DNA of 64,000 bases from a virus, in IMG/VR virus record IMGVR_UViG_3300042309_001835, positions 11,553 to 75,552 of that record. One strand, given 5' to 3'. Below the pieces are notes generated by a model, which worked only from the letters and a program-made list of their open reading frames with translations, was not told where the DNA came from and did no database searches. Positions 3,587 to 48,409 of the stretch are shown piece by piece. Each line of letters starts with the position of its first letter. The first letter of the stretch is position 1. Position numbers and translations under genes: made by a program.

Positions 3587-4324
3587 ATGCCCGAAGACAA
3601 CAGCAATGCACCCGAGACGAGTGCAGACAACACGGAAGAGCAAAAAGCGACGGAAACCGCAGATGATCGCAGCTATTCCGAGGAAGAAGTTCAGAACCTG
3701 CTGAAGGCGCTGAAATCCGAACGTGAAACGCGTAAGATCTACGAGAAAGAGGTAAAGGAGAAAAGCGCCCAACTGGAGAAGTTTGCGCAAATCAACCCAA
3801 ACGAATACCGCAAACTGCAAGAAGAAGCAGCTATCGCTGCGCGTGAAAAGGCTGCTGCCGATGAGCGCACTGCATTGCTGGAGGAAAAGTACGGCAAACA
3901 GGCAGCAGAAGCCGTCCAGCAGCGCGACAGTGCCCACAAGGAACTACTGGAGTTCCGCAAGCGTTATTCACTGGAAAAGGTATTCTTCTCGGCTGGCGGT
4001 CGCACTGATTCCGCAGATGGCGTGTCATTTTTTGACATGTTAGCCAACCAAATCGGTGGCCATTTCCGCCTGGAACCCGACAACAGTATTACTGTTGTTG
4101 ATTCCAACGGTGTGCCGATCCTGGACAAGGAATCCGGCCGCCGGATTAACCCTGAAGATTACCTGGGTGGATTCAAAAACCATCCAATCTATGGCACTTT
4201 CTTCAAGGGCTCCAAGGGGTCTGGTGCTGGTATCGGCTACGGCGGTACCGACACGAATGGCATGACCAGTGAAGACTTGAGCACGCTCAGTCGTGATGAG
4301 TTGTTCCTGAAAGCATTTGGTTGA
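3587..4324 (+). CDS. capsid scaffolding protein
   Basis: Acidic N-terminus, long coiled coil, GSGAG C-terminal region; directly upstream of the major capsid gene. Confidence 0.8.
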   Translation: MPEDNSNAPETSADNTEEQKATETADDRSYSEEEVQNLLKALKSERETRKIYEKEVKEKSAQLEKFAQINPNEYRKLQEEAAIAAREKAAADERTALLEEKYGKQAAEAVQQRDSAHKELLEFRKRYSLEKVFFSAGGRTDSADGVSFFDMLANQIGGHFRLEPDNSITVVDSNGVPILDKESGRRINPEDYLGGFKNHPIYGTFFKGSKGSGAGIGYGGTDTNGMTSEDLSTLSRDELFLKAFG

Positions 4325-4513: not shown

Positions 4514-5416
4514 ATGGCATTAACTCTTGCTGAAGCCAAGAAGCATTCTACTAACCCGCAGGAACTCGCGATTATCACCGAGCTTGCTGCTGGTCCCCTG
4601 CTGCAAAACCTGCCGTTCCGTGAAGTTCAGGGCAACGGTCTGTTCTGGAAGCGTGAGGAGTCCCTCGGCGACGTGGGTTTCCGTACGTTCAACGCTGGTT
4701 ATACCGAAAGCTATGCCACCGTCAAGCAGCACAGCGAAGCGCTGAAGCTGTTCGGTGGTGACATCAAGGTTGACCGCGCTATCGTCGACCTGGAGGGCCC
4801 CGAGGCTCGCGCCTATCAGGTGCAAGCCAAGACCCGTGCAATGCGTCTGGCCTTTGAGGGCCTGTTCATCAACGGTGACTCCAACGGTAGTGGCGCTGAG
4901 TTTGACGGCCTGGCAAATCGCCTGCCCGTTGGCTCCAGCCAGTACATCGCCAACGGCGTTTCCCCCGCCGCTCTGGACACCGGTGCCCTGGACGAAGCTA
5001 TCGACGCAGTGGATGCACAAGGTGGCACCAAGTACCTTGTGATGTCCAAGTCCGCTCGTCGTCACCTGAGCAAGGTGGCTCGCGCCAACGGTCAGATCGA
5101 CATCGAGCGCAACGACTTCGGCTACCAGCAACTGTTCTACGGTGGCATTCCGGTGCTTGAGCTGGATCGCGACCACCAGAACGTTGCCATCCTGGATAGC
5201 GATGCCAGCGATCAGTCCATCTACGTGGTGGCCTTCGGCAACGATCTGCTGACCGGTCTGCAGAACGGTGGCCCTCAGGTGCGTGACCTTGGTGAAGCGA
5301 CCGATTCGCCCGTCTTGGTTACCCGCGTTGAATGGTATTGCGGGATGGCTTTGATCAATGGCCGAGCCGCTGCCCGTCTCGCCAACGTGGACGCTACTGC
5401 CTCGCTTGTGTCCTGA
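4514..5416 (+). CDS. major capsid protein (HK97-like fold)
   Basis: 300 aa; GGDIKVDRA, FINGD...EFDGL and RVEWYCG motifs; strongly biased codon use; terminator downstream. Confidence 0.9.
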   Translation: MALTLAEAKKHSTNPQELAIITELAAGPLLQNLPFREVQGNGLFWKREESLGDVGFRTFNAGYTESYATVKQHSEALKLFGGDIKVDRAIVDLEGPEARAYQVQAKTRAMRLAFEGLFINGDSNGSGAEFDGLANRLPVGSSQYIANGVSPAALDTGALDEAIDAVDAQGGTKYLVMSKSARRHLSKVARANGQIDIERNDFGYQQLFYGGIPVLELDRDHQNVAILDSDASDQSIYVVAFGNDLLTGLQNGGPQVRDLGEATDSPVLVTRVEWYCGMALINGRAAARLANVDATASLVS

Positions 5417-5432
5417 TCTTACCGAAGCTTCC

Positions 5433-5457
5433 GGGGGCCGCAGGGCCCCCTTTTTTT
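5433..5457 (+). terminator. intrinsic terminator after capsid gene
   Basis: GGGGGCC/GGCCCCC stem followed by T7. Confidence 0.85.
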
Positions 5458-5590
5458 GTCCAGTTACTTGATCCATGCGAAATATCGGTAGTCACTGGTG
5501 GTACTGTTTAGTTGTATGACAAATCCACAACTAGGAACACTAATCTGGTCGAGCCACGTAACGGAAAACTAACTGGAATGAACAAATTCA

Positions 5591-43621: not shown

Positions 43622-43996
43622 ATGCCCCGTCCAATCAAGCCACGTTCAAGCCGTCGCCGCCTGCAGGGACAGCGCATCCTAAGCTTTGTCGCAACCCATC
43701 AAATCGATGGCAACGGCATCCAAGGTGTTACGGCTGCCAGGAAATTCGTATCACAAAATAATGTTTGCTATCCGGCAATCATTCGCGTTCATCGCAACAG
43801 GTATACAATCGACAGTTTTTTCCTCGCGGAAAAGGGAATGTTCGGATTGGCATATGCTGAATTCAATTGGATGGTATTTCCGTGCCTTCGGCAACTGGTC
43901 GAAAAAATTGGCCCAAGAGAGCTTTTCACTGACTTGGGCCTTTATGATTGGGCTTCCGAAGAAGAGAGCTACAGGGCGGAATACGCTTTTATCTAA
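43622..43996 (+). CDS. hypothetical protein
   Basis: 124-aa ORF. Confidence 0.55.
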   Translation: MPRPIKPRSSRRRLQGQRILSFVATHQIDGNGIQGVTAARKFVSQNNVCYPAIIRVHRNRYTIDSFFLAEKGMFGLAYAEFNWMVFPCLRQLVEKIGPRELFTDLGLYDWASEEESYRAEYAFI

Positions 43997-44415
43997 GCGA
44001 CCCTAGTTAGCCTGTTTCCGAAGTTGAACTTATAGCCCTCGACGGTTTGATCCTGACAGGGCTCCATGTATGTTCTGAAGCAACAAATCTTGTTGATTGC
44101 CGTGGTGTCAACGCCAAACTCTTTGGCAATGTCACCCTGCTTTTCACCCAAGTGGGCCCTTAGGCGAATTTCGTAAATCTGACGATCGCTGAAAAAGCCT
44201 TGCTTGCGTCCACGCTTGACTGGATCGACGCTCACGGGTGGCCGACGCATAACACGTCTGACAACGCGGCCAGGAGTGCTGGCCGAAACGTCTGTAATCC
44301 TGGCTATGCTGTCATAGTCATAACCTTGGCACCTCAGGTCCCAAATGCGGTCTTCTTTGGGAATGGAAACTCTTCCTCTTGCTCTGGTCATGGTTTCGGG
44401 TAATGGGTATCCCAC
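43993..44415 (-). CDS. double-HTH DNA-binding protein
   Basis: YDSIARITDVSAST and QGDIAKEFGVDTTAINKI. Confidence 0.6.
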   Translation of the reverse strand: MGYPLPETMTRARGRVSIPKEDRIWDLRCQGYDYDSIARITDVSASTPGRVVRRVMRRPPVSVDPVKRGRKQGFFSDRQIYEIRLRAHLGEKQGDIAKEFGVDTTAINKICCFRTYMEPCQDQTVEGYKFNFGNRLTRVA

Positions 44416-44719
44416 TGCCCTTCTATCTTAGACGAATACTGGAGGGAAGCAACCCCCGGCCCGCCGCAGTGTTACAATTTATTGACACGCCACATCAGGC
44501 GTAACCGTTGCATTACGTTACAATCCCCTTGTTTCATAGTATCCACGATTTAATTGAACCCAGAAAGCGGATGCTTCAATGCGCTGGCTCCAGGCTTCTG
44601 GGTCCGATGGGTCGTGGATATTTTGCAGATATATTGGCGGGAACATTGAACGCTTCCAGGCCCTGAAGGCCCAATAAATATAGCCCACGCTATTGCAGAC
44701 AAACTAGCATAGATTACCA

Positions 44720-44821
44720 GCGCCCAGACGGGAATCGAACCCGCATCGTAGTCCTGTCATATAGCATTGCGTCCAACGCATCAGCCAGGTACCGACCTGT
44801 CCAGTTGGTTCGGACTGGGCG
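44720..44821 (-). ncRNA. tRNA-like RNA with canonical acceptor and T-arm but no normal anticodon arm
   Basis: CGCCCAG/CTGGGCG, GCGGG-TTCGATT-CCCGT; 102 nt. Confidence 0.6.
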
Positions 44822-44822
44822 A

Positions 44823-44896
44823 CGACTCAGACAGGACTCAAACCTGTGACCGACCGCTTAGAAGGCGGTTGCTCTATTCAACTGAGCTACTGAGCC
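44823..44896 (-). tRNA. tRNA-Arg(UCU)
   Basis: GGCTCAG/CTGAGTC acceptor, ACCGC-CTTCTAA-GCGGT anticodon arm. Confidence 0.9.
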
Positions 44897-44909
44897 ATTA
44901 GTCAGGCAG

Positions 44910-45365
44910 GGCGTCTTACCGTATCGGGCGGTATCTCCTGGCTATGTGCCAGGCGTGTTCCTTACACCAAGACGCAGTGACCCTCCTGTTTGTGCATCAT
45001 CCAGCGTCCTGGGGCTAAGCATAGAGGGTGTTTGCACGGATCTAACCTGCGATCCGTAAGGGGTACCTTCTCCCTAAGGGGCCCCGCCGGGTCCGGGACG
45101 GTTGGTCAACCGTATGCAGTCCGTCGAGCTTGCCAAGTGGGTCGAGGGCTCAACCGTGGACTAGACGGGCGGAGGTGATCAACCCTCCGGCCTGGAAACC
45201 CAGGACTTCACGCAGGTCAACAACGATCGAAAATTTCCGATCCAGAATCGACGCAGTGCCCATTCCTGTTGACTGCACCCCGCCGACAGAGCAGCGTGGG
45301 GGGTTAACAGAAGGATTGGGCGTGACCGGATACAAAAGTAACCAGACAGTGGCCCAACCTCTGTC
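44910..45365 (-). ncRNA. candidate large structured RNA region, including a mini-cloverleaf at 44910-44975
   Basis: About ten adjacent hairpins, a 7-bp loop-to-distal complementarity, no credible ORF, promoter upstream. Confidence 0.55.
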
Positions 45366-45371
45366 ACTAAC

Positions 45372-45380
45372 AGTATACCA
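45372..45380 (-). promoter_or_regulatory. extended -10 promoter (TG-G-TATACT) for the RNA cluster
   Basis: Plus strand AGTATACCA directly upstream of the structured region. Confidence 0.5.
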
Positions 45381-45385
45381 CAAAG

Positions 45386-45913
45386 TCAGTCCACGTTGAC
45401 TGCCATCTCAGACCTGATTTGCTCAAAGTCGATTGGCCTGTAGTCCGTATGTTCTACGCATACGCATCTGTATCTGAGATCGGGCTCATCTTTCTCATCC
45501 AAGACTTGTCGGTAATGTAAATGTCCATGGATATTGCCCTTGTACCTGATGACTCCACAAGTGTGAACAGGAATATGCGTCAGGACATAATGATCCAGGT
45601 AATGACACCCTCTGATGTCATCAAAATATTTCACATAGTCCTGTAGCTTGAAAATATCATGATTTCCTCTGATTAGAATCTTCCTGCCATTCAGCCTTTC
45701 TAGACACTTCAGTCCACGCCTGGGAATAGCCACGTCTCCAAGGTGGTAAACTTTATCCTTGGGGCTAACGGTGTTGTTCCAGTTGTCGATCAATGCTTCA
45801 TTCATTTCATCTACGTCATCCCAGGGCCTGAGCTTGGAGCCGTCGTCCCTGGTGAATCGGCAGACGCCGCCATGCCCGAAATGTGTATCAGAGATTAAGA
45901 ATGTCTTCGTCAT
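45386..45913 (-). CDS. calcineurin-like metallophosphoesterase
   Basis: DTHFGH, LGD, GNHD, THIP, HGHLH. Confidence 0.9.
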   Translation of the reverse strand: MTKTFLISDTHFGHGGVCRFTRDDGSKLRPWDDVDEMNEALIDNWNNTVSPKDKVYHLGDVAIPRRGLKCLERLNGRKILIRGNHDIFKLQDYVKYFDDIRGCHYLDHYVLTHIPVHTCGVIRYKGNIHGHLHYRQVLDEKDEPDLRYRCVCVEHTDYRPIDFEQIRSEMAVNVD

Positions 45914-47442: not shown

Positions 47443-47527
47443 GCAATACTAATGGTTTGAGGTATTGACCTGCGGGTGTCTAGCGGATAATTTAGATATG
47501 TCCTTAGACGCCAACAGGCTCTTAGCC

Positions 47528-48409
47528 ATGCAGATCACCAAGCCCATGCTCGCCGGAACCTATGACGCCTGTAAGGCGCGTTTCCCTTATATGGCGACTC
47601 CCAAGATTGACGGCATCCGTTTTGTCATGGTCGAGGGTGTTGCCCTGAGTCGTTCGTTTAAGCCGATCCGTAATGCTTACGTGCAAAGCACGCTAAGGAG
47701 CTGCTTGCCGGATGGCGTTGACGGCGAATTGACTTGCGGTGATACGTTCCAGTCGTCATCATCGGCAATCATGTCAACCGATGGCACGCCGGATTTCAAT
47801 TGCTGGATTTTTGATTATGTCGACCCGTTTAGCGATATCGTAGCACCCTATCGAGATCGGATCACTGATCCAGCGCTAGTTGAACTGGAAACTGAGCAGT
47901 TCATTACCATCCTGAAGCCAGAACTGGTTGCCAACGAACAGGAGCTGCGAGCAGTAGAAGAACGTTACCTTGATGCGGGGTTTGAGGGCGTAATGGTGCG
48001 TGACCCGGATGGAGGGTACAAGTTTGGCCGCTCCACGGTCAAAGAGAACACTTTACTGAAAGTGAAGCGTTTTGTTGATGACGAAGCAATCCTGGTCGGA
48101 GTGCTGGAAAAGCAGCACAACATGAACCAAGCCATGCAAGATGCGTTTGGGCGCACAAAGCGCTCTACCAGTCAAGACGGCAAAGTTGGTGCCAATACTG
48201 CTGGTACGTTGGTCGTGCGTAACGCAGATGGCGTTGAGTTTGGTATCGGCACAGGGCTCGATGAGGCCATGCGTGCTAAAATTTGGTCCAATCCTGGTGA
48301 ATTCGTTGGCATGATGGTTAAGTACAAGTATTTTCCCGTTAGCGTCAAGGAGAAGCCGCGACACCCTGTTTTTCTGGGATTTCGCCATCGCGATGATATT
48401 TCGTCATGA
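47528..48409 (+). CDS. ATP-dependent DNA ligase
   Basis: KPMLA, KIDGIR, DGEL, FEGVMVR, LLKVK, PRHPVF. Confidence 0.9.
   Translation: MQITKPMLAGTYDACKARFPYMATPKIDGIRFVMVEGVALSRSFKPIRNAYVQSTLRSCLPDGVDGELTCGDTFQSSSSAIMSTDGTPDFNCWIFDYVDPFSDIVAPYRDRITDPALVELETEQFITILKPELVANEQELRAVEERYLDAGFEGVMVRDPDGGYKFGRSTVKENTLLKVKRFVDDEAILVGVLEKQHNMNQAMQDAFGRTKRSTSQDGKVGANTAGTLVVRNADGVEFGIGTGLDEAMRAKIWSNPGEFVGMMVKYKYFPVSVKEKPRHPVFLGFRHRDDISS

What the first reader, a model, noticed from the sequence alone, without database searches (positions are those of the whole stretch)
44720..44821. tRNA mimic: perfect acceptor stem and T-arm, anticodon arm replaced by a long irregular stem
Seen (minus strand): CGCCCAG...CTGGGCG-C acceptor and GCGGG-TTCGATT-CCCGT T-arm. 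The 70-nt interior forms a bulged stem (GTA/TAC, CCTG/CAGG, TGCGT-TGG-ACGCA) with no 7-nt anticodon loop. It starts 1 nt after tRNA-Arg ends, consistent with release by tRNA-processing enzymes. It lacks the G3-U70 pair and tag ORF of tmRNA. Inference: possible decoy for tRNA-targeting defence nucleases, or a Y-RNA-like or other elbow-mimicking regulator.
Basis: partly seen in the sequence, partly recalled or inferred. Interest (0 to 1): 0.72.

Follow-up and report, generated by a model that had tools for sequence, protein, structure and literature searches.

The report
Anticodon-less tRNA-shaped RNA of lake cyanophages
This is a real, conserved small RNA gene of uncultured lake cyanophages: it folds like a tRNA but has a plain hairpin where the anticodon should be, so it cannot decode, and it often sits directly behind an RNA hairpin of the type that silences the bacterial AbiF defence toxin.

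Summary
On the minus strand, 44821-44720 carries a perfect 7-bp acceptor stem, a canonical T-arm and a discriminator. It begins one base after tRNA-Arg(TCT). ARAGORN and Rfam call nothing there.

It is neither a decaying tRNA nor a tRNA with an intron. Two narrow D-loop patterns recover about 125 IMG/VR contigs holding about 80 distinct sequences, in two size classes:
- 74-83 nt: a 6-bp stem with a YGCU tetraloop replaces the anticodon arm.
- 100-105 nt: a long bulged arm capped by a GACG-loop hairpin (the form in this window).

Compensatory changes support the acceptor, T, D and middle stems in two separate sequence sets. All tRNA core invariants except U33 are kept. A covariance model gives members 60-94 bits and true tRNAs at most 34.

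Apart from one phage-like fragment binned with a cyanobacterial genome, the family was not found in bacterial genomes. It was also not found in GenBank phages.

Like neighbouring tRNAs, it encodes no CCA and usually has U after the discriminator. A stable stem always ends 0-6 nt (up to 18 in a few) upstream of it, and in several relatives that stem is an abiF antitoxin motif scoring above Rfam's threshold.

Most likely it is excised by RNase P and RNase Z as a non-decoding tRNA-like RNA. Whether it is mainly a processing module or a decoy is open.

Earlier scan notes covered this same genome only.

The parts
44720..44821 (-). The tRNA-like RNA gene (102 nt including the discriminator). It is a long-arm member of a phage family.
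   Evidence: Sequence. Model R1 gives 73.5 bits, against at most 34 for true tRNAs. Family alignment A1.
44815..44821 (-). Acceptor 5' strand (positions 1-7). It pairs with 44721-44727.
   Evidence: All 7 pairs show compensatory changes and are 99% paired in two sequence sets.
44792..44814 (-). U8, N9 and the D-arm (positions 8-30). The stem is extended (10-29, 11-28, 13-27, 14-26, 15-25, with A12 unpaired). The 9-nt loop carries the A14, R15, G18G19 and A21 equivalents.
   Evidence: These columns are invariant. Pair 15-25 is CG:21 / UA:16 and CG:33 / UA:6. RNAalifold predicts the same stem. Positions 13 and 27 co-vary as G.A / A.G.
44749..44791 (-). Long bulged arm (positions 31-73) in place of the anticodon arm. 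The apical hairpin at positions 43-58 closes a GACG tetraloop.
   Evidence: RNAalifold on 9 long-form members. Apical pairs 43-58, 44-57 and 46-55 show compensatory changes, and basal pairs 30-74, 31-73 and 32-72 are predicted.
44745..44748 (-). 4-nt variable region CGAU (positions 74-77). U77 is the equivalent of Y48.
   Evidence: C74, G75 and U77 are invariant and A76 is at least 90% conserved in 41 sequences.
44728..44744 (-). T-arm: 5-bp stem and a TTCGATT loop.
   Evidence: 100% paired, with compensatory changes in 4 of 5 pairs. The G53, T54, Y55, C56, A58 and C61 equivalents are invariant.
44720..44727 (-). Acceptor 3' strand (44721-44727) and discriminator C (44720). It is followed by U, and no CCA is encoded.
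   Evidence: U at +1 in 39 of 42 distinct members and CCA in 0 of 42.
44823..44896 (-). tRNA-Arg(TCT), one base upstream of the element.
   Evidence: Rfam tRNA 63.8 bits. ARAGORN.
44909..44976 (-). A second non-canonical tRNA-like unit (the 'mini-tRNA'): tiny D-loop, anticodon-like loop CACAUAG with A at position 33, degenerate T-loop.
   Evidence: Read. ARAGORN calls it tRNA-Met(CAT) only at a relaxed threshold. Homologous units occur in L006, L009, L020 and L041.
44980..45028 (-). abiF-like RNA hairpin carrying an inserted GACG-loop hairpin. It ends in the tail UCACU directly before the mini-tRNA.
   Evidence: RF03085 gives 16.5 bits, below the gathering score of 37. Homologous motifs in relatives reach 39-56 bits.
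45030..45366 (-). Upstream structured non-coding RNA of the same transcription unit.
   Evidence: Fold z = -3.46. No Rfam match. Short metatranscriptome contigs from 4 runs cover 45066-45352 only.
45372..45380 (-). Extended -10-like box (TGnTATACT), the candidate promoter of the array.
Evidence: Read. Not found by the two-hexamer scan.
44683..44700 (-). Terminator-like hairpin followed by a T-rich run, 20 nt downstream of the element.

Best explanation
The element is a gene for a non-decoding, tRNA-shaped small RNA. It belongs to a conserved family carried by uncultured lake phages that include S-CBS2-like Synechococcus siphoviruses.

Shown here:
- The RNA keeps a 7-bp acceptor stem, a 5-bp T-stem, a D-arm with the elbow-forming GG, and the tRNA core invariants.
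- The anticodon arm is replaced by a closed hairpin. In this window it is expanded to a 43-nt bulged arm.

Inferred:
- The element is transcribed at the end of a roughly 650-nt array: promoter, large structured RNA, abiF-like hairpin, mini-tRNA, tRNA-Arg, element, terminator.
- Host RNase P cuts before C44821 and RNase Z cuts after C44720. CCA is then added, giving a stable RNA of about 105 nt that cannot enter decoding.
- The RNase P cut also gives the upstream RNA a hairpin-closed 3' end with a short tail. In relatives where the element directly follows an abiF antitoxin-type hairpin, this would release that hairpin with the same short tail that follows the motif in the two cyanobacterial AbiF loci examined.

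I therefore read it first as a built-in tRNA-like processing and end-forming module of phage RNA operons. Its released product probably has a further role in trans, because its arm loops are conserved.
For: Family and structure:
- 75 of 78 hits to the first D-loop pattern are full elements, and 50 of 55 hits to the second pattern score as members, 49 of them at 60-91 bits and one, cut off at the end of its contig, at 42.
- Compensatory changes occur in all 7 acceptor pairs, in the T-stem, in one D pair and in the middle-arm pairs, in two separate sets of 41 and 39 distinct sequences.
- RNAalifold predicts a cloverleaf on its own.
- The invariant columns match the tRNA core.
- Members score 60-94 bits against at most 34 for tRNAs.

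Not a decoder:
- The short forms have a 4-nt loop.
- ARAGORN and Rfam give no call. Forced calls are inconsistent, and only 3 of 41 family sequences are called when introns are allowed.

Processing signals:
- No CCA is encoded in 0 of 42 members, and U follows the discriminator in 39 of 42 and 28 of 38. The 26 tRNAs of the same loci show the same pattern.

Upstream partner:
- The 45 nt before the element fold at -12.2 against -8.2 kcal/mol in same-locus controls (Mann-Whitney p = 6e-9). In most loci the last stem ends 0-6 nt before the element (7-18 nt in five of the 42, where the upstream stem can also be weak).
- abiF RNA above Rfam's gathering score lies 3-7 nt upstream in five loci. An abiF-like motif lies within 330 nt upstream in about 22 of 81 distinct loci, separated by zero to a few tRNA-like units.
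- In other phages a mini-tRNA or a true tRNA-Pro takes the place behind the motif.
- The cyanobacterial AbiF locus has the same motif and the same tail but no tRNA-like unit.
Against: - No RNA data show the mature species. The metatranscriptome contigs laid on the region did not cover the element. This is uninformative, because small modified RNAs are poorly recovered.
- A pure processing handle would not need the family-specific D-stem, the conserved YGCU or GACG loops, or two conserved size classes.
- In this window the element follows a true tRNA, where no extra handle is needed.
- Most family loci (about 73%) have no abiF-like motif nearby.
- The family sequences are phylogenetically related, so the p-value is inflated.
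Confidence: 0.5

Rival explanations
1. Trans-acting tRNA decoy or inhibitor. The mature RNA occupies the tRNA-binding site of a host factor, most plausibly a tRNA-directed defence RNase such as a HEPN toxin of the AbiF/Abi_2 type. Its anticodon loop is replaced by a closed stem, so it cannot be inactivated by anticodon-loop cleavage. Processing by RNase P and RNase Z is then only its maturation route. This can be true together with the best explanation.
For: - The tRNA body is fully conserved while only the anticodon loop is removed.
- The arm loops are sequence-conserved within each size class.
- It is physically linked to abiF antitoxin-type hairpins in about a quarter of loci.
- Abi_2 genes with that motif exist in the likely host order, in 4 of 151 genomes searched.
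- The phage itself has no Abi_2 gene.
- Published work shows that the abiF RNA blocks the AbiF HEPN site and that Cas13a, a relative, cuts tRNA anticodon loops (PMC12373285, PMC13064643).
Against: - No binding or phenotype data exist.
- The RNA target of AbiF is not established in the papers read.
- Three quarters of family loci lack the motif.
- Abi_2 is rare in the host order sampled.
Confidence: 0.3
2. A chargeable but non-decoding tRNA. A synthetase that ignores the anticodon aminoacylates it, and it serves as an amino-acid donor or as a sink for a synthetase or EF-Tu.
For: The acceptor helix, core and CCA-less tRNA-type 3' end are intact. C1-G72 with C73 occurs in most members.
Against: - The discriminator varies: C 53, A 15, U 11 and G 2 of 81.
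- No G3-U70 is present.
- There is no long variable arm.
- No aminoacyl-transferase or synthetase gene recurs among the neighbours.
Confidence: 0.07
3. A true decoding tRNA whose long arm is a removable insertion (intron), or which has an unusual anticodon loop.
For: Homologues about 27 nt shorter exist, so the long arm is an expansion of a shorter arm. At very relaxed settings ARAGORN can force an intron-containing call.
Against: - The short homologues have a 6-bp stem and a 4-nt loop, with no U33 and no 7-nt loop.
- The forced calls disagree on identity (Ala, Pro, Gly, Ile, Leu). Only 3 of 41 are called with introns allowed.
- The insertion is far too small to be a group I intron (my own knowledge), and I did not look for an archaeal-type bulge-helix-bulge motif.
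- The arm pairs co-vary as a stable helix.
Confidence: 0.03
4. A decaying tRNA pseudogene left behind in a phage tRNA cluster.
For: It lies in a cluster with other degenerate tRNA-like units.
Against: About 80 distinct sequences keep every stem through compensatory changes and keep the tertiary-core invariants. The neighbouring phosphoesterase is only about 50% identical between phages that carry the element.
Confidence: 0.02

Closest known systems
Canonical tRNA (Rfam RF00005)
   Same: 7-bp acceptor stem, discriminator, T-arm, D-loop GG, the U8, A14, A21, G53, T54, Y55, C56, A58 and C61 equivalents, a 4-nt variable region, a position inside a phage tRNA cluster, no encoded CCA and U after the discriminator.
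   Different: No 7-nt anticodon loop, no U33 and no anticodon. The D-stem is extended to five pairs plus an unpaired A. The element is not detected by the Rfam tRNA model or by ARAGORN.
tRNA-like processing signals: mascRNA behind MALAT1, and the t-elements of plant mitochondrial mRNAs (from my own knowledge, not checked in papers here)
   Same: Cloverleaf-like RNAs without a working anticodon loop that RNase P and RNase Z cut. The cut defines the 3' end of the upstream RNA. Here a stable stem ends a few bases upstream of every family member.
   Different: Those are eukaryotic or organellar. No sequence relationship is known. Cleavage of the phage element has not been shown.
tRNA-like domain of tmRNA
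   Same: A tRNA-shaped RNA with acceptor and T-arm but no anticodon. tmRNA genes are also found in some phages.
   Different: No G3-U70 pair. A true D-stem is present. There are no pseudoknots and no tag reading frame. The element is only 75-105 nt long and is not called by ARAGORN or Rfam.
Phage T4 RNAC and RNAD (species 1 and 2 RNAs)
   Same: Small stable phage RNAs of still unknown function (PMC9697503). From my own knowledge, they are encoded in the T4 tRNA gene cluster.
   Different: No sequence or structure comparison was made here. T4 infects enterobacteria.
abiF RNA (RF03085), the RNA antitoxin of AbiF/Abi_2 HEPN toxins
   Same: This is the frequent upstream neighbour of the element, not the element itself. 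Copies above the Rfam threshold lie 3-7 nt upstream in five relatives.
   Different: The element does not match RF03085. In this window the neighbouring motif scores only 16.5 bits, and no Abi_2 gene is present in the phage.
YrlA / bacterial Y RNAs with a tRNA-like module
   Same: A non-coding RNA that mimics the tRNA elbow.
   Different: From my own knowledge, in YrlA the RNA ends form the Ro-binding stem and the tRNA-like part is internal. Here the ends form the acceptor stem. No Rfam match was found.

Membership tests
Canonical tRNA | 7-bp acceptor stem with a discriminator, and a 5-bp T-stem with a TYC-type loop | tested here: met
   Covariation.
Canonical tRNA | D-arm and tertiary-core invariants (U8, A14, G18G19, A21, Y48) | tested here: met
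   These columns are invariant in 41 sequences. The D-stem is longer than usual.
Canonical tRNA | 5-bp anticodon stem with a 7-nt loop, U33 and an anticodon | tested here: not met
   The loop is a tetraloop in the short forms. The long forms have a 43-nt arm with a GACG loop.
Canonical tRNA | Detected by the Rfam tRNA model (29 bits) or by ARAGORN | tested here: not met
Intron-containing tRNA | Removing the insert leaves a canonical anticodon arm, and homologues without the insert are normal tRNAs | tested here: not met
   The short homologues are not tRNAs. Forced intron calls are inconsistent.
tmRNA | G3-U70 alanine identity pair | tested here: not met
   The 3-70 pair is C-G in 37 and U-A in 4 of 41 sequences.
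tmRNA | Tag reading frame and pseudoknots between the halves of the tRNA-like domain | tested here: not met
   Only 102 nt. There is no tmRNA call at default settings and no Rfam tmRNA match.
tRNA-like processing element (mascRNA / t-element type) | Cleaved by RNase P at its 5' end and by RNase Z at its 3' end, which defines the end of the upstream RNA | not testable with these tools
   Indirect evidence only: the tRNA-type trailer and the structured RNA ending 0-6 nt upstream.
abiF RNA (RF03085), for the neighbouring hairpin at 44980-45028 | Score at or above the gathering score of 37 bits | tested here: not met
   16.5 bits in this window. Relatives L134, L111, L110, L132 and L130 reach 39-56 bits.
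Y RNA / YrlA | Ro-binding stem formed by the RNA ends, and an Rsr (Ro) gene nearby | not tested
   No Rfam match. The topology differs by inspection. Rsr was not searched for.

The most novel reading that the evidence does not exclude
Lake cyanophages carry an RNA-only counter-defence operon. An orphan copy of the host's AbiF antitoxin hairpin is cut out of a tRNA-like array by RNase P. The anticodon-less tRNA-shaped RNAs released with it act as uncleavable tRNA mimics that help neutralise a tRNA-directed HEPN toxin. The adjacent metallophosphoesterase, with a nearby ligase, might heal RNA cut by the toxin.
Probability: 0.15. Interest if true: 0.88.

Novelty: new variant of a known kind. Interest (0 to 1): 0.68.

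Why it matters
tRNA-shaped RNAs that do not decode are rare and have been informative where found (tmRNA, mascRNA, viral tRNA-like ends). This family has about 80 distinct sequences, clear covariation and a well-defined architecture. It is confined to uncultured phages and is unnamed in Rfam. Its repeated fusion to the RNA antitoxin motif of the AbiF toxin (the proposed ancestor of Cas13) points to a testable way for phages to produce antitoxin mimics using the host's own tRNA-processing enzymes. It also raises the question of whether anticodon-less tRNA bodies can blunt tRNA-directed immunity. In practical terms, tRNA finders miss these genes, so phage 'intergenic' regions near tRNA clusters are under-annotated.

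Tried and rejected
- Single-sequence folding: the minimum-energy fold is not better than shuffles (z = -0.98). Its D-arm pairing uses G7 and is contradicted by homologues.
- Expression: four lake or river metatranscriptome runs were laid on 44500-45500. Their contigs cover only 45066-45352, plus fragments over the tRNA-Arg gene that run on unlike this DNA and so seem to come from other organisms. There was no cover on the element. This says nothing about its expression, because only contigs were available.
- GenBank phages: blastn with the long and the short form found nothing. Model R1 found nothing in S-CBS2, S-CRES1 or S-CRES3.
- Bacterial genomes: the D-loop pattern gave 91 hits, about what I estimate chance would give for a pattern this loose. 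Only one is a full element, and it lies on a 3.3-kb contig with a phage tail-like ORF. R1 found no other copy in 151 genomes of that cyanobacterial order.
- A functional link to the neighbouring phosphoesterase was considered. The gene lies within 3 kb on the same strand in 16 of 42 loci. However, it resembles the DNA-repair enzyme PdeM and aq_1665 only weakly, so shared synteny cannot be excluded.
- A resemblance of the D-region to the 5' part of the tmRNA tRNA-like domain was considered and dropped, because the element has a co-varying D-stem and no G3-U70.
- Literature searches for phage tRNA-like RNAs without an anticodon found no description of this family. A catalogue of IMG/VR structured-RNA candidates (PMC10690425) mentions tRNA-like candidates but could not be matched to it.

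Full report
**What is in the window.** There is a 7-bp acceptor stem (CGCCCAG with CTGGGCG), discriminator C, and a T-arm with a GCGGG/CCCGT stem and a TTCGATT loop. tRNA-Arg(TCT) ends at G44823 by the Rfam alignment, so a single U separates the two genes. ARAGORN and Rfam call three ordinary tRNAs in the window and nothing here, even at E up to 10. ARAGORN run with introns allowed also calls nothing. Only at very loose thresholds does it force mutually inconsistent calls. The single-sequence fold is no better than shuffles (z = -0.98), so the sequence alone could not settle whether the structure is real.

**The organism.** The window is part of a 75.5-kb IMG/VR virus record rated complete. 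It encodes a major head protein, portal, terminase, primase, helicase, ribonucleotide reductase, endolysin and tail fibre. Its large terminase is 70-72% identical to those of the Synechococcus siphoviruses S-CBS2 and S-CRES1-3. DNA runs that hold the stretch are lake-water metagenomes. Relatives carry glutamine riboswitches, which from my own knowledge are typical of cyanobacteria and their phages. This points to a lake cyanosiphovirus.

**Homologues.**
- Exact copies of the element lie in two other IMG/VR contigs.
- I fetched loci through the neighbouring phosphoesterase. nhmmer and blastn against them found shorter relatives that match both ends of the element but lack about 27 nt in the middle (L009 and L072). 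ARAGORN does not call them either.
- A degenerate pattern written from the shared D-region hit 78 viral contigs, and 75 of them have the full acceptor and T-arm arrangement, giving 40 distinct sequences.
- A one-base-shorter pattern hit 55 more contigs, of which 50 are members by the covariance model.
- Lengths fall into two classes: 74-83 nt and 100-105 nt.

**Structure.**
- In an alignment of 41 sequences, all seven acceptor pairs and four of five T-stem pairs show compensatory changes and are 99-100% paired. No shuffle or slid register comes close.
- A second set of 39 distinct sequences, not used to build the model, gives the same result and also supports the middle-arm pairs. That alignment is fitted to the model, which favours the structure somewhat.
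- RNAalifold on nine long-form members predicts a four-arm cloverleaf on its own.
- The invariant columns are the tRNA core: U8, the A14/R15 pair of adenines, the GG of the D-loop, A21, the last base of a 4-nt variable region CGAU, and the G53, T54, Y55, C56, A58 and C61 equivalents.
- The D-stem is unusual. Two constant pairs are followed by an unpaired A, a G.A/A.G co-varying position, a constant C-G, and a Y-R pair that switches cleanly between C-G and U-A.
- In the short class, the anticodon arm is replaced by a 6-bp stem closed by a YGCU tetraloop.
- In the long class, it is replaced by a bulged arm whose apical 6-8-bp hairpin closes a GACG-type loop, with compensatory changes.
- A covariance model built from the family scores members at 60-94 bits and every ordinary tRNA in 648 kb of phage DNA at 34 bits or less.

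**What it is not.**
- It is not a tRNA with a removable insert, because the versions without the insert have no anticodon loop either.
- It is not a pseudogene, because the stems are maintained by compensatory change across phages whose neighbouring protein is only about 50% identical.
- It is not tmRNA: the 3-70 pair is C-G or U-A, there is a true D-stem, and there is no room for a tag frame.
- It matches no Rfam family.

**Distribution.**
- The D-loop pattern gave 91 hits in one genome each of 185,579 bacterial and archaeal species, about the number I estimate chance would give for a pattern this loose.
- Only one hit is a full element. It lies on a 3.3-kb contig of a Cyanobacteriota bin that also encodes a phage tail-like protein.
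- The model found no other copy in 151 genomes of that order, none in the three nearest cultured phages, and blastn found none in 50,697 GenBank phage records.
- As far as searched, the family is confined to uncultured phages.

**Processing signals and neighbours.**
- No member encodes CCA. The base after the discriminator is U in 39 of 42 and 28 of 38 distinct members. The 26 ordinary tRNAs of the same loci behave the same way.
- From my own knowledge, CCA-less genes with U at that position are the substrates preferred by RNase Z.
- The 45 nt immediately upstream fold more stably than same-locus controls (-12.2 against -8.2 kcal/mol, Mann-Whitney p = 6e-9; the sequences are related, so this is inflated). 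In most loci the last stem ends 0-6 nt before the element, though in five of the 42 the gap is 7-18 nt.
- That upstream partner is a tRNA, another tRNA-like unit, a GC-rich hairpin or an abiF RNA motif.
- In five relatives the abiF motif passes Rfam's gathering score (39-56 bits against 37) and ends 3-7 nt before the element. An abiF-like motif lies within 330 nt upstream in about 22 of 81 distinct loci.
- In this window the motif (44980-45028) is degenerate at 16.5 bits. It is separated from the element by a mini-tRNA-like unit and by tRNA-Arg.

**Why the abiF link matters.**
- The abiF RNA is the antitoxin of the AbiF/Abi_2 HEPN toxin and blocks its active site (PMC12373285, PMC13064643).
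- The phage has no Abi_2 gene.
- Abi_2 genes occur in 4 of 151 genomes of the likely host order. Two of them carry, about 120 nt upstream, an abiF motif at 31-34 bits whose sequence and 3' tail resemble the phage copies. There is no tRNA-like unit there.
- The phage motif therefore looks like an orphan antitoxin mimic.
- In phages it is regularly followed by something tRNA-shaped: this element, the mini-tRNA, or a true tRNA-Pro. That is what one would expect if RNase P is used to cut the hairpin free with a defined tail.

**Mechanism: what is shown and what is inferred.**
- Shown: a conserved, phage-restricted, tRNA-shaped RNA gene without an anticodon loop, with tRNA-type flanks, always abutting a structured upstream RNA.
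- Inferred: excision by RNase P and RNase Z, CCA addition, and a role in forming the end of the upstream RNA.
- The conserved loops of the middle arm, the two conserved size classes, and the placement here behind a true tRNA argue that the released RNA also acts in trans. A decoy for a tRNA-binding toxin is the most attractive idea, but it is untested.
- I give the processing-module reading about 0.5 and the decoy reading about 0.3. The two are compatible.

**Expression.** Contigs from four metatranscriptome runs cover 45066-45352, the large structured RNA at the head of the array, and stop inside the non-coding region. This is a weak hint that the array is transcribed from the TATACT box at 45372-45380. 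The element itself was not covered, which is uninformative.

**Earlier notes.** Two first-reader notes on this same genome had flagged the surrounding array and the upstream structured RNA. Their module list agrees with what I found for the mini-tRNA and the abiF-like rod. They are not independent evidence. The scan had not noted this element on other DNA.

**Verdict.** This is a genuine new family of non-decoding tRNA-like RNAs in lake cyanophages, with a plausible but unproven tie to counter-defence against AbiF.

Noticed in passing
window 44980-45028 (-); L134 1302-1338, L111 7516-7552, L110 6389-6425, L132 151-187, L130 2503-2534: Phage-borne abiF RNA motifs (RF03085) with no Abi_2 gene in the phage. 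This window's copy scores 16.5 bits, while relatives reach 39-56 bits against a gathering score of 37. Two cyanobacterial Abi_2 loci (L256, L257) have a very similar motif with the same UCACU tail. This looks like an orphan antitoxin mimic.
   Followed up: partly
window 44909-44976 (-); L006 about 5420-5487; L020 about 3922-3990; L041 about 3915-3985; L009 4746-4816: A second family of non-canonical 'mini-tRNAs'. They have a 4-bp D-stem with a 3-5-nt loop and an anticodon-like loop CA[G/C/A]AUAG with A where U33 should be. They usually follow an abiF-like motif directly. ARAGORN calls some of them Ile or Met only at relaxed settings.
   Followed up: partly
window 45030-45366 (-): A roughly 330-nt structured non-coding RNA at the head of the array (fold z = -3.46, no Rfam match). 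Short contigs from four lake or river metatranscriptome runs cover 45066-45352 only. Part of it (about 45090-45160) is conserved upstream of the abiF motif in L111 and L132.
   Followed up: partly
L007 4631-4711; L006 about 4535-4600: A third anticodon-less tRNA-like unit, with a GCAGG/CCTGC T-stem and a middle arm closed by a tetraloop. It sits next to tRNA-Arg(TCT) in the two closest relatives that lack this element. ARAGORN mis-calls it a 93-nt tRNA-Phe in L007.
   Followed up: no
window 45386-45913 (-) and 47465-48409 (+); L020-L050 around 3900-4001: A metallophosphoesterase (PHROG 547) with weak matches to PdeM and to PDB 1xm7. An abiF-like motif plus one mini-tRNA lies 82-91 nt upstream of its start in many phages (24 of 78 loci have a motif within 400 nt; the background is 0.03 per window). 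In this window an ATP-dependent ligase lies 1.5 kb away. This may be a cassette, and a role in RNA end-healing would be worth testing.
   Followed up: partly
window 45000-45011 and 44770-44781 (-): The same type of hairpin, a G-C pair closing a GACG loop, appears both as the insert in the abiF-like motif and as the tip of the element's long arm. It recurs at both sites in relatives (L009, L117, L139). It may be a shared protein-binding module.
   Followed up: no
L147 9476-9496 and 9746-9766: Two copies of the family's D-loop pattern lie 270 nt apart in one contig, suggesting a tandem duplication of the element.
   Followed up: no
L009 5353-5484; L111 6509-6563: Glutamine riboswitch (38.5 bits) and glutamine-II riboswitch (39 bits) lie above their gathering scores in related phage contigs. 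This is consistent with cyanobacterial hosts.
   Followed up: no
L090 499-753 and eight other loci, about 150 nt downstream of the element; window 43993-44415 (-): Small HNH endonuclease genes recur just downstream of the element (9 of 42 loci). The ORF downstream in this window has weak HNH and HTH matches. These may be homing endonucleases of the kind found in phage tRNA clusters.
   Followed up: no
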